Assembly: GCF_003334785.1 (NCBI RefSeq)
Contig: NZ_QOWV01000030.1
Length of the DNA: 24,767 nucleotides
DNA from: Escherichia coli
Lineage (GTDB): Bacteria; Pseudomonadota; Gammaproteobacteria; Enterobacterales; Enterobacteriaceae
Reading direction: 5' to 3' (one strand)
A program made the position numbers and the translations under genes. This document shows positions 22,352 through 23,458 of this stretch, piece by piece. Each line of letters starts with the position of its first letter. Position 1 is the stretch's first letter. The notes under the pieces are model-generated. The model made no database searches. It was given only the letters and a program-made list of their open reading frames with translations, and was not told where the DNA came from.

Positions 22352-22426
22352 GTGGGATACCAGAAGATTATGTTATTTGTTATTCAGTAACTTTATCCAC
22401 AATGATGGGCGTAATTAATTAAATTC

Positions 22427-22639
22427 ATGGTATGTTTTTTAATTTATATCACTCTCCTTTTCATTCAGCGTGTCTATTTCATTTCCTCTGAAAAGAAACT
22501 AACTATTCACATTGTGCAGATGTTTCAGTTGTTATCACAGGCATTCTATAATCTCAAAATGTTTTTAATGATGGATATGCTCGGAGTTGGAGATGCAATT
22601 AATATTAATACAAATAAAAATATCCGGCAGGTATGCTAA
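22427..22639 (+). CDS. yncH: Small AT-rich ORF YncH (DUF5445-like), 70 aa
   Basis: A 70 aa ORF inside a strongly AT-rich region with atypical codon usage. No recognisable motif; the gene call rests on its size and position. Confidence 0.55.
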   Translation: MVCFLIYITLLFIQRVYFISSEKKLTIHIVQMFQLLSQAFYNLKMFLMMDMLGVGDAININTNKNIRQVC

Positions 22640-23458
22640 AAGGATAAATGGCGTTCTCTGTATTTATTCGCAATTATCTGTAGGACAAATATGGAGAGCT
22701 TGATGAGTCAGAGCTAAAACAGCAATTGATTAATAAACATGTTGATTTATTCAAGAAAATGGATGTATTTTAAATGTTGATTCTTAATATAACCTAATCA
22801 ATAGATTATCAAGTGAGAGCTACACATTATTGGAGGGGCAGGGGAAAACACCATTTTGGGAACAATGCATCAGGTACTCTTACCACTGAAGCAAGATCAT
22901 CCGGCACCAGGTGGTGGTGCAGTGCTTTGGAAATGGTCCCCTCGGGGGAGTTGTCATTATTTTCTATGCTATTTGCTTATTATATTCATCAGGTGAATTT
23001 AATAAATTCCTAATTTGAAATATCCACTATTAAGCTAGTGTTTAACGACGTTAAGATGGCAATGTGCAGATCATGTTATCAGGGTGGGGCGGTAGCGTAT
23101 ATTCCTTATACAAACCATCATTCATTTCAATGATTGTTATTGAATTATTTATTGTTGTGAATAAAAAGACATTATGAATATTGGTTTGACTTTGCATATC
23201 AGGTTTTTTATTACTCGCTGTAATGTACGAGCCTGTCGTGAATAACGTCGAGAACCCATCCGTTGCGTTTGTGATTATTTTGTTGACTAAACAGACACCC
23301 GTTTCTCTGAAGTAAAATCCCAGACTAAATCATCACATAACCATGACATTTTTCTGATATTCCCCGGTAACGCCAGATGTCGACTCGCTTATCTCATCCG
23401 CCCGACATGTTGTACATGCAATATGTGCGGATTATTATTCATTTTCACGGAGGTTGCT

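What the first reader, a model, noticed from the sequence alone, without database searches (positions are those of the whole stretch)
22352..23458. About 1.1 kb strongly AT-rich block (yncH plus an approximately 0.8 kb apparently non-coding spacer) preceding the vgrG-rhs remnant
Base composition drops sharply after yncG (long runs such as ttaatttatatcac, aattaatattaatacaaataaaaat) compared with the flanking genes, which look about half GC by eye. Only one short ORF (yncH, 70 aa, unusual codon usage) and one doubtful 66 aa track ORF occur in 1.1 kb. This is typical of horizontally acquired, H-NS-silenced DNA and fits the junction of an Rhs/VgrG island. The spacer could hold an unannotated sRNA, a promoter for the vgrG fragment, or remnants of further degraded genes.
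Basis: seen in the sequence. Interest (0 to 1): 0.4.

Follow-up and report, generated by a model that had tools for sequence, protein, structure and literature searches.

The report
H-NS-coated vgrG leader with RfaH site
The AT-rich 1.1 kb is real, but it is two unrelated pieces: an Escherichia-only orphan ORF (yncH) with a non-coding tail, and the silenced 5' leader of a type VI secretion vgrG-Rhs island, which carries a conserved loading site (ops) for the anti-terminator RfaH; this is a known kind of control region, here left in front of decayed cargo.

Summary
Window 22352-23458 is 35.5% GC against 50.3% for the window, the lowest 1.1-kb block present.

The block is a mosaic.
- Left part (22352-22952): yncH plus a tail. 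It is present in about 66% of E. coli genomes. yncH occurs only in Escherichia and shows no protein-level constraint (pN/pS 1-2.4, against 0.14-0.29 for yncG).
- Right part (22953-23458): the native leader of orphan vgrG-Rhs islands, about 80% identical to the leader of the cusS-linked vgrG1 island.
- Inside the right part, a 40-nt core (23062-23101) is present in 4740 of 5426 complete E. coli genomes and is nearly invariant in front of four different cargoes.
- The core contains GGCGGTAGCGTA (23088-23099, + strand), an 11/12 match to the RfaH ops element.

The homologous site in CFT073 is a published RfaH ChIP target in a strain lacking hns and stpA. Published K-12 data show strong H-NS binding over yncH.

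I found no sRNA (Rfam, folding, published Term-seq), no sigma-54 promoter and no degraded gene in six-frame searches.

Verdict: an ordinary H-NS-silenced xenogeneic leader with an ops element, a new member of a known kind. In this window it is vestigial, because vgrG and rhs are deletion remnants.

The parts
22352..22426 (.). yncG-yncH gap, 30.7% GC. There is no Shine-Dalgarno sequence in front of the yncH ATG.
22427..22639 (+). yncH ORF (70 aa, Pfam DUF5445). An Escherichia-restricted orphan with no sign of purifying selection on the protein.
   Evidence: Pfam match, E 1e-40. All named database relatives are from Escherichia (one name reads 'MULTISPECIES Enterobacteriaceae') and the search found none more distant. 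pN/pS is 1.0-2.4, against 0.14-0.29 for yncG. The start codon is lost or fused in a common allele class. GC3 is 0.38.
22640..22952 (.). Non-coding tail of the yncH module, including the 51%-GC bump at 22813-22960. It is single-copy and co-occurs with yncH in about 66% of E. coli genomes.
   Evidence: Present in 3576 of 5426 genomes, with no paralogue. Absent from L005, L006, L007, L021 and L027. No protein homologues beyond the same locus. No Rfam hit, no tRNA, and fold z -1.0.
22937..22965 (+). Terminator-like hairpin TCCCCTCGGGGGA followed by a T-rich run. It sits at the right edge of the yncH module and could insulate the vgrG leader from yncG/yncH read-through.
   Evidence: the count does not exceed the shuffles. 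Homology to the other vgrG leaders starts immediately after it. The published MG1655 Term-seq list has no 3' end here.
22953..23061 (+). Conserved AT-rich region upstream of ops; candidate promoter region. It contains the palindrome GAATTTAATAAATTC (22995-23009). It also has two -10-like hexamers whose positions are conserved: TAAATT at 23003-23008 (with TTATAT at 22980-22985, spacer 17) and TAAGAT at 23052-23057 (with TTAAGC at 23030-23035, spacer 16).
   Evidence: Alignments A2 and A4. PWM scan across 8 contexts. Coordinates. An RNA polymerase sigma-70 gSELEX peak falls in this spacer. No TSS has been mapped.
23062..23101 (+). 40-nt near-invariant core, the only sequence shared by every cargo variant of this hotspot and by the cusS-vgrG1 island.
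   Evidence: Present in 4740 of 5426 complete genomes, at 7372 places, 1-3 per genome; 100% identical in at least 3324 records. Alignment A4.
23088..23099 (+). ops element GGCGGTAGCGTA (RfaH loading and pause site) on the non-template strand of vgrG.
   Evidence: 11/12 match to ops12, GGCGGTAGCGTG. C3, G4, G5, T6, A7, G8 and T11 are kept in all contexts. The identical 12-mer in the homologous CFT073 core is RfaH-bound in a strain lacking hns and stpA.
23102..23458 (+). Untranslated vgrG leader of about 360 nt, shared at about 80% identity with the vgrG1 (cusS) island and absent from the other cargo types. Its 3' two-thirds have more C than G (C/G 1.3). It ends in the Shine-Dalgarno GGAGG (23449-23453) before the ATG at 23459.
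23186..23214 (+). Sigma-70 promoter predicted by Shimada et al. (TTGACT-17-TATTAC). It lies downstream of ops, and an 8-nt deletion in the vgrG1 paralogue destroys its spacing.
23342..23359 (-). Weak PhoB ChIP-seq site (TATCAGAAAAATGTCATG), reported as lying in an H-NS-bound region; its authors regard most such sites as transcriptionally inert.
23396..23432 (+). Strong leader hairpin followed by a U-rich tract just before the Shine-Dalgarno sequence; a possible attenuator. It is weak in the vgrG1 paralogue.
   Evidence: -20.9 kcal/mol, z -2.05. The paralogue fold has z +0.57.

Best explanation
The block is a mosaic of two horizontally acquired, H-NS-coated pieces.

(1) 22352-22952 is an Escherichia-specific 0.6-kb module. 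It holds the orphan ORF yncH, which evolves as if its protein did not matter, and a non-coding tail that ends in a terminator-like hairpin.

(2) 22953-23458 is the native control region of an orphan type VI secretion vgrG-Rhs effector island. It consists of an AT-rich promoter region, an ops element at 23088-23099 on the coding strand, and a roughly 360-nt untranslated leader with more C than G that ends at the vgrG ribosome-binding site.

Proposed mechanism:
- H-NS (with StpA) filaments over the AT-rich DNA block initiation, and they promote pausing and Rho-dependent termination in the long untranslated leader and the foreign operon behind it.
- When the promoter upstream of ops does fire, RNA polymerase exposes ops in the non-template strand. 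RfaH loads there, excludes NusG, and carries the polymerase through the leader and the long vgrG-rhs operon.

What is shown: the composition; the mosaic structure; the conservation and identity of the ops core; and its homology to a site with published RfaH occupancy. H-NS binding in K-12 is also published.

What is inferred: the position of the promoter; that RfaH acts at this particular leader; and the role of Rho.

In this window the cargo is a deletion remnant (vgrG truncated after about 745 nt and joined to rhs fragments), so the leader is most likely a silent relic.
For: Composition.

Mosaic structure:
- The right part (about 22954/22983 to 23458) is 78-82% identical to the region upstream of vgrG in the cusS-nfrB island.
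- The left part is missing from strains that still carry the core.

ops element:
- GGCGGTAGCGTA is the only exact GGCGGTAGnnT match in 24.8 kb, and it is on the vgrG strand.
- The consensus and the roles of individual bases come from Zuber 2018.
- The core is invariant across eight contexts with four different downstream cargoes and is present in 87% of complete E. coli genomes.
- CFT073 carries the same 12-mer in the same homologous core, 313 nt upstream of PAAR-vgrG. It is listed as RfaH-bound in a strain lacking hns and stpA.
- kpsM uses GGCGGTAGCATA and is bound in wild type, so T11-A12 is tolerated.

RfaH and T6SS: RfaH plus ops is required for the EAEC sci1 T6SS cluster.

H-NS: K-12 IP/input is 85.5 over yncH.

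Promoter: -10-like hexamers sit at conserved positions 84 and 36 nt upstream of ops in all contexts.

yncH.

Cargo decay.
Against: - No TSS, RfaH occupancy or expression data exist for this leader in this strain.
- In K-12, RfaH has been reported at only two operons (text quoted).
- The only published promoter prediction for the spacer (23186-23214) and the best consensus match (23076-23103) would start transcription at or after ops, leaving ops untranscribed.
- Position 12 is A rather than the pause-promoting G shared by the classical E. coli targets. The vgrG1 copy also has A at position 1.
- An ops-like match of 9 specified bases appears somewhere in 14 of 100 shuffled windows, so the motif alone is not significant. 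The case rests on conservation and on homology to the CFT073 site.
- Resemblance to the 39-bp JUMPStart beyond ops is only partial.
- The low divergence of the block (3-6%, against pS 0.15 in yncG) may reflect AT-biased mutation or recent exchange rather than constraint.
Confidence: 0.7

Rival explanations
1. The block is plain compositional relic DNA. It is AT-rich foreign DNA coated by H-NS with no specific cis-element, and the ops-like 12-mer is a chance match or a dead relic kept only because too little time has passed.
For: The cargo behind it is a pseudogene remnant in this window and in K-12. A 9-base ops core match occurs in 14% of shuffled windows. RfaH is reported at only two K-12 operons. 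No transcript ends were detected in the region.
Against: The 40-nt core is identical or nearly so in front of four unrelated cargo sets and at a second chromosomal locus, while the sequence on both sides is replaced. The homologous CFT073 site has RfaH ChIP signal. Every base needed for RfaH recruitment is kept in every variant.
Confidence: 0.12
2. The conserved core is chiefly a recombination landmark: a junction created or used by ISAs1/H-rpt elements, or the minimal homology used for cargo swapping. On this reading its conservation reflects that role rather than transcription control.
For: Three cargo types diverge within 1-2 nt of the 3' edge of ops. In CFT073 and FDA536 an ISAs1 left end (CAGGGAAAGAT...) starts 9 nt after ops. 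In L007 the ISAs1 element replaces everything from the core's own CAGGG onward. Both islands end in ISAs1 copies on the right.
Against: Similarity of the core to the ISAs1 inverted repeats is limited to CAGGG. At the cusS locus the core lies about 250 bp inside the island boundary, not at its end. A junction role does not explain why exactly the RfaH-contact bases are invariant. The two roles are not mutually exclusive.
Confidence: 0.13
3. The spacer encodes an unannotated small RNA (for example 22813-22965, ending at the hairpin) or the remains of degraded protein genes such as hcp.
For: There is a terminator-like hairpin with a T-run at 22937-22965 and a local GC bump. There is a 66-aa ORF and a 92-aa open frame. 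The waaQ ops leader is annotated as the sRNA RirA in K-12, so a short leader RNA is conceivable.
Against: No Rfam match at E<=1. Fold z-scores are -1.0 for the bump and -0.9 for the leader. The curated MG1655 Term-seq list has no 3' end in 1,526,8xx-1,527,9xx. One terminator-like site is no more than the shuffles give. Six-frame pieces hit no family above noise, and database searches return only calls from this locus.
Confidence: 0.05

Closest known systems
ops / RfaH-dependent leaders of H-NS-silenced operons in E. coli (waaQ, rfb/wzx, wza, kps, hly, tra); in particular the c1882-c1889 PAAR-vgrG locus of UPEC CFT073 (Hustmyer et al. 2022, PMC9765446)
   Same: - The same 12-mer (GGCGGTAGCGTA) in a homologous 40-nt core.
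- The same chromosomal hotspot downstream of ansP/yncG, on the coding strand.
- A long untranslated leader (313 nt in CFT073, 360 nt here).
- H-NS-bound.
- T6SS spike and effector cargo.
   Different: - The cargo and the leader downstream of ops are unrelated to the CFT073 ones. Here it is vgrG2-rhsE, and decayed.
- No occupancy or expression data exist for this leader.
- G12 is A, as in kps, unlike the classical TG.
- The yncH module lies upstream here but not in CFT073.
JUMPStart 39-bp element of polysaccharide gene clusters (rfb, wza, waaQ)
   Same: It ends in the ops sequence preceded by CAGG(G). The CFT073-type core also has GCAGTGC 27 nt upstream of ops, one nucleotide off its position in rfb.
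   Different: The internal GGTAGC half-repeat and most of the remaining 27 nt are not shared. In the window itself GCAGTGC reads CAATGTGC. The upstream conserved sequence is specific to orphan vgrG islands and is not found at the hcp-tssH or c4518 ops sites.
ops elements inside T6SS main clusters (EAEC sci1 hcp-clpV ops1; bioRxiv 10.1101/2025.02.08.637259)
   Same: An ops element in an intergenic region of T6SS genes; RfaH is needed for downstream transcription.
   Different: Those sites are internal to a structural cluster. This one heads an orphan vgrG-Rhs effector island and shares no flanking sequence with them.
H-NS-silenced AT-rich xenogeneic DNA in E. coli
   Same: Low GC, restricted distribution, high H-NS ChIP signal, weak or promiscuous transcription factor binding (PhoB), and Rho-terminated antisense transcription nearby.
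   Different: None in kind; this is a typical example.

Membership tests
RfaH-dependent ops leader | 12-nt ops (GGCGGTAGnnTG) on the non-template (coding) strand, with the RfaH-contact bases C3, G4, G5, T6, A7, G8 and the pause base T11 | tested here: met
   GGCGGTAGCGTA lies at 23088-23099 on the + strand. It matches 11/12, and only G12 differs (A). kpsM uses ...CATA and is RfaH-bound.
RfaH-dependent ops leader | ops lies in the transcribed, untranslated 5' leader: downstream of a promoter and upstream of the first ORF | tested here: inconclusive
   It is intergenic, 360 nt upstream of the vgrG ATG. Conserved -10-like hexamers lie 84 and 36 nt upstream. No TSS is mapped, and the best consensus or published promoters lie at or after ops.
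RfaH-dependent ops leader | RfaH occupancy from ops onward and rfaH-dependent distal expression | not testable with these tools
   Published only for the homologous CFT073 site, in a strain lacking hns and stpA.
RfaH-dependent ops leader | The operon is long, horizontally acquired and H-NS bound | tested here: met
   The intact operons (O157, Escherichia sp.) carry vgrG, an optional DcrB/EagR gene, and a 4-5 kb rhs. In this window the operon is a remnant.
JUMPStart element (39 bp) | The full 39-bp consensus CAGTGCTCTGGTAGCTGTTAAGCCAGGGGCGGTAGCGTG | tested here: not met
   Only ops, the preceding CAGG(G) and (in the CFT073 type) GCAGTGC are shared; the internal GGTAGC is absent.
H-NS-silenced xenogeneic DNA | AT-rich relative to the genome, patchy distribution, H-NS ChIP enrichment | tested here: met
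   GC is 0.355 against 0.503. The yncH module is in 3576 of 5426 genomes and only in Escherichia. H-NS binding comes from the literature, for K-12, not for this strain.
Small regulatory RNA gene | A discrete transcript with a defined 3' end, conserved structure or a family match | tested here: not met
   No Rfam match. Fold z-scores are about -1. The published Term-seq list has no 3' end here.
YncH / DUF5445 protein-coding gene | An ORF maintained by purifying selection, with translation signals | tested here: not met
   The Pfam match is trivial, because the family consists of these sequences. pN/pS is 1.0-2.4. With 1 synonymous change out of 11, yncG-like constraint is rejected at p about 0.002 (my binomial estimate). 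There is no Shine-Dalgarno sequence, and the ATG is lost in a common allele. The ORF nevertheless stays open in all alleles seen.
ISAs1 / H-rpt terminal inverted repeat | A match to the element's IR (CAGGGAAAGATCA... / CAGGGCAAGATTACGA) | tested here: not met
   The core shares only CAGGG.
Sigma-54 promoter (common in T6SS clusters; an RpoN gSELEX peak maps to window position 23021) | TGGCAC-N5-TTGCW | tested here: not met
   There is no site with 3 or fewer mismatches between 22292 and 23218. The total count equals that of the shuffles.

The most novel reading that the evidence does not exclude
The roughly 150-bp promoter-plus-ops cassette may be a fixed, portable 'head' for exchangeable T6SS effector cargo in Escherichia. 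Different vgrG, PAAR and Rhs modules would be swapped in directly behind the ops site, with breakpoints clustered within 1-2 nt of its 3' edge and ISAs1 ends nearby. Every newly acquired cargo would then be placed at once under RfaH anti-silencing. That would make it a cassette platform analogous to an integron's Pc/attI, but for secretion-system ammunition.
Probability: 0.15. Interest if true: 0.6.

Novelty: new member of a known kind. Interest (0 to 1): 0.35.

Why it matters
- It explains what the unannotated 0.8 kb in front of rhsE/vgrG is in K-12-like and many other E. coli: the silenced control region of an orphan T6SS effector island, with an RfaH loading site.
- It predicts that the EHEC orphan islands vgrG1-rhsF and vgrG2-rhsE are under H-NS/RfaH control. 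Their expression could not be forced by promoter swapping (PMC13141884).
- It adds a third leader-context ops site to K-12.
- It flags yncH as a doubtful protein-coding gene.
- None of this changes the understanding of RfaH or H-NS. The specific ops-Rhs island link was not found in the searchable literature, but the same hotspot is already listed for CFT073.

Tried and rejected
- Rfam scan of 21400-23800 at E<=1: no match.
- tRNA/tmRNA scan: nothing found.
- The GC bump as a structured RNA: z -1.0. The whole leader: z -0.9.
- Sigma-54 promoter, which might have explained the RpoN gSELEX peak: no site.
- Small ORF over the core (MAMCRSCYQGG...): the start codon is absent in the CFT073 type and a 1-nt indel falls in the vgrG1 copy, so rejected.
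- Core as an ISAs1 inverted repeat: only CAGGG is shared.
- Fur box or dyad operator in the core: judged by eye only, with no convincing match; the GATC at 23069 is not invariant.
- Six-frame protein searches against NCBIfam and PHROGs and two big-database searches: only noise or hits to the same locus.
- Scan of 100,044 species genomes for the core pattern: only one Escherichia sp. and one Citrobacter-labelled MAG, whose yncG region is about 92% identical to E. coli; the remaining 25 hits look like chance matches.
- Searches for TSS or sigma-70 peaks in supplements (Thomason 2015 is not held; Singh 2014 and Fitzgerald 2023 have nothing for this region; the Cappable-seq file is truncated).
- The hairpin after ops (23116-23137) as an attenuator: weak, and broken in the paralogue.
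Full report
**Observation**

The block 22352-23458 has 35.5% GC against 50.3% for the 24.8-kb window. No 1107-bp window is lower than the one starting at 22251 (34.3%; mean 49.9%, sd 4.0). It is not uniform:
- yncG-yncH gap: 31% GC
- yncH: 31%
- 22640-22812: 28%
- a bump at 22813-22960: 51%
- 22961-23220: 30%
- 23221-23458: 42%

The window is E. coli, with the gene order pqqU-yncE-ansP-yncG-yncH-spacer-vgrG'-rhs'. It is not K-12. K-12 carries a larger deletion that starts at window position 23392 and removes the vgrG start. 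MG1655 coordinates convert to window coordinates by subtracting 1,504,513.

**The block is a mosaic**

BLAST against 5,426 complete E. coli genomes shows that the right part is repeated at a second locus, directly upstream of the vgrG of the cusS-nfrB island. This covers about 22954/22983 to 23458, at 78-82% identity. That island is the 'vgrG1-rhsF' of EHEC; the one here is 'vgrG2-rhsE'. So the right 0.5 kb belongs to the vgrG-Rhs element itself.

The left part (22352-22952: yncH and a 313-nt tail) is single-copy and present in 3576 of 5426 genomes. It is missing from strains that have other arrangements at this hotspot. B2-type strains keep only a badly degraded yncG between ansP and the conserved core. 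Homology among the vgrG leaders begins right after a terminator-like hairpin at 22937-22949.

**yncH**

Across 5.8 billion protein clusters the search found only 157 close relatives. Every one that carries a name is from Escherichia, apart from one labelled 'MULTISPECIES Enterobacteriaceae'. The Pfam family DUF5445 is therefore essentially these sequences.

Orthologous loci from divergent Escherichia lineages (L036, L039) allow a selection test:
- yncH has pN/pS of 1.0-2.4, with 1-2 synonymous against 5-10 non-synonymous changes.
- The neighbouring yncG has 0.14-0.29.

With 1 synonymous change out of 11, yncG-like constraint is rejected (p about 0.002 by my binomial estimate), while neutrality fits.

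There is no Shine-Dalgarno sequence. In a common allele class the ATG is lost and the frame is fused to an upstream 26-aa ORF. The ORF does stay open in all alleles seen, so a poorly constrained small protein cannot be excluded.

The whole block diverges by only 3-6% between these lineages, against a synonymous divergence of 0.15 in yncG. That could mean nucleotide-level constraint, AT-biased mutation or recent exchange. I cannot separate these.

**The conserved core is an ops element**

I aligned eight contexts:
- this window
- O157
- two other Escherichia species
- the vgrG1 island
- a B2-type strain with an Rhs fragment and vgrG
- CFT073
- FDA536, with PAAR-vgrG

The alignment shows one short stretch that survives while the sequence on both sides is replaced: window 23062-23101, ATGTGCAGATCATGTTATCAGGGTGGGGCGGTAGCGTATA. 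This 40-mer is present in 4740 of 5426 genomes, at 7372 places, 1-3 per genome.

Its 3' end, GGCGGTAGCGTA (23088-23099, + strand, the vgrG coding strand), matches the RfaH ops element GGCGGTAGCGTG at 11 of 12 positions. According to Zuber et al. 2018, G4, G5, A7 and G8 are essential for RfaH recruitment. C3 and T6 contribute, T11 is needed for the pause, and G12C abolishes the pause but not recruitment. All of these bases except G12 are invariant in every context.

Hustmyer et al. 2022 list exactly this 12-mer in CFT073. It lies at 1715753-1715764, + strand, downstream of ansP and the yncG remnant and 313 nt upstream of c1882 (PAAR)-tssI. They report it as one of eight leader ops sites with RfaH ChIP signal, in this case only in a strain lacking hns and stpA. 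I fetched that region and confirmed that it lies in the homologous core. The same paper shows kpsM using GGCGGTAGCATA with RfaH bound in wild type, so A at position 12 is tolerated.

A 2025 preprint shows that RfaH and two ops sites are required for the EAEC sci1 T6SS cluster.

By itself the motif is weak evidence: 14 of 100 shuffled windows contain a match of the 9 specified bases. The case rests on strand, position, invariance and homology to an experimentally bound site.

**Relation to JUMPStart**

The 39-bp JUMPStart sequence I recalled from memory is confirmed by BLAST: it is found in all 5426 genomes. I extracted the rfb, wza and waaQ copies from MG1655. Beyond ops, the vgrG core shares only the preceding CAGG(G). 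In the CFT073 type it also shares GCAGTGC, 27 nt upstream of ops. The internal GGTAGC is missing.

The ops sites of hcp-tssH and c4518 in CFT073 share no flanking sequence with the core. The roughly 25-110 nt conserved upstream of ops is thus specific to orphan vgrG islands.

**Promoter**

ops must be transcribed to work. A simple sigma-70 PWM scan over all eight contexts finds two -10-like hexamers at conserved positions:
- 84 nt upstream of ops. This reads TAAATT here (23003-23008, inside the palindrome GAATTTAATAAATTC), TATATT in the B2 type, and a perfect TATAAT in the CFT073 type.
- 36 nt upstream. This reads TAAGAT at 23052-23057, or TATGAT in the CFT073 type.

Transcription starts near 23015 or 23065 would put ops U11 at about +83 or +34, comparable to rfb (67) and hly (135). 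This is inference.

The consensus scan's best hit (23076-23103) overlaps ops. The promoter proposed by Shimada et al. (23186-23214) lies downstream of ops and is broken by an 8-nt deletion in the vgrG1 copy. No sigma-54 motif accounts for the RpoN gSELEX peak at window position 23021.

**H-NS and Rho**

Three published K-12 data sets place H-NS here:
- Average IP/input is 85.5 over yncH, 12.5 over yncG and 78.5 over ydcD, against roughly 0.7-2 for the unbound genes listed in the same table.
- Shimada 2014 flags the yncH-rhsE spacer 'HNS'.
- The weak PhoB site at 1527862 (window 23342-23359) is marked H-NS-bound.

Adams et al. 2021 report no Term-seq 3' end in the block, but they do report a Rho-termination region on the minus strand at 1526823 (window 22310). 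The leader after ops is 360 nt long and untranslated, and its last 240 nt have a C/G ratio of 1.3. It contains a strong hairpin plus U-tract just before the Shine-Dalgarno sequence (23396-23432; -20.9 kcal/mol, z -2.05). That hairpin is weak in the vgrG1 paralogue. Such features would favour premature termination in the absence of RfaH, as discussed for hly. This too is inference.

**What is not there**

- No Rfam family and no tRNA.
- No unusually stable fold for the bump or the whole leader.
- The twenty open frames of at least 28 aa in 22600-23500 were listed and the longer ones searched. They gave no family hit above noise; the best was 16 bits against a cut-off of 483.
- The two longest frames find only sporadic 'hypothetical protein' calls from this same locus in the 5.8-billion-cluster database.

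**Cargo state**

In this window vgrG runs from 23459 to about 24204. It is then joined to 90 nt of the rhs N-terminal region and then to the rhs core from 24292. The leader therefore fronts a pseudogene chain. In O157 and two other Escherichia lineages the same leader fronts intact vgrG, an optional DcrB/EagR gene, and rhs.

**Novelty**

RfaH/ops control of H-NS-silenced operons is established, including T6SS loci and this very hotspot in CFT073. I found no paper in the searchable library that combines RfaH, ops and Rhs. The EHEC literature treats control of the orphan vgrG islands as unknown. The finding is therefore a new member of a known kind.

The unexplained detail is that three cargo types diverge within 1-2 nt of the 3' edge of ops, with ISAs1 ends nearby.

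Noticed in passing
window 23099-23102; L005 about 5122; L006 about 5037-5046; L046 about 2765-2775: Three unrelated T6SS cargo sets diverge from one another within 1-2 nt of the 3' edge of the ops element: the vgrG2 leader, the B2-type Rhs fragment with vgrG, and the CFT073-type PAAR-vgrG. In the CFT073 type an ISAs1 left end starts 9 nt after ops. In L007 an ISAs1 element replaces everything from the core's CAGGG onward, so ops is lost there.
   Followed up: partly
window 23459-24767: The 'vgrG-rhs remnant' is a three-piece deletion mosaic. It consists of the vgrG 5' 745 nt (to 24204), 90 nt of the rhs N-terminal region (24206-24295), and then the rhs core, which is 100% identical to K-12 rhsE from 24292. 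K-12 has a bigger deletion starting at window 23392, and BL21-type strains have a junction at 23797.
   Followed up: partly
window about 22310, minus strand: Published bicyclomycin Term-seq (PMC7815308, supplementary file 2) lists a Rho-termination region at MG1655 1526823 on the minus strand, antisense to the 3' end of yncG. This implies antisense transcription coming out of the AT-rich block.
   Followed up: no
window 22338-22639: In a common allele class (about 800-900 contigs) yncH has no ATG at the annotated start. It is instead fused in frame to the 26-aa ORF that overlaps the yncG stop, giving 81- or 100-aa calls.
   Followed up: partly
window 22413-22427 and 22994-23008: A 15-nt inverted repeat (93% complementary) brackets the yncH module. 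The right arm is the conserved palindrome in the candidate promoter. This may be chance in AT-rich DNA.
   Followed up: no
L005 about 4600-4870 (strain Z1323CEC0015); likewise L027: Strains that appear to lack yncG in fact keep a heavily degraded, internally deleted yncG remnant between ansP and the ops cassette. yncG is therefore ancestral at this locus and yncH is a later addition.
   Followed up: partly
window 23396-23432: A strong hairpin (ATCCGC...GCGGAT with a 9-bp inner stem) is followed by UAUUAUUCAUUUU immediately before the vgrG Shine-Dalgarno sequence. It is conserved among vgrG2 leaders but shortened by indels in the vgrG1 leader.
   Followed up: partly
L045 2167-2239 (MG1655 waaQ leader): RefSeq annotates the ops/JUMPStart-containing waaQ leader as the sRNA RirA. 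An analogous short leader RNA from the vgrG ops leader is conceivable but has no support so far.
   Followed up: no
window about 23021: A published RpoN-holoenzyme gSELEX peak (MG1655 1527534) falls in the conserved region upstream of ops, yet there is no sigma-54 -24/-12 motif within 200 nt. This is probably non-specific binding to AT-rich DNA.
   Followed up: yes
E. coli genome collection: Some genomes carry the 40-nt ops core at three places, and eight places are on plasmids. The third chromosomal context was not identified.
   Followed up: no
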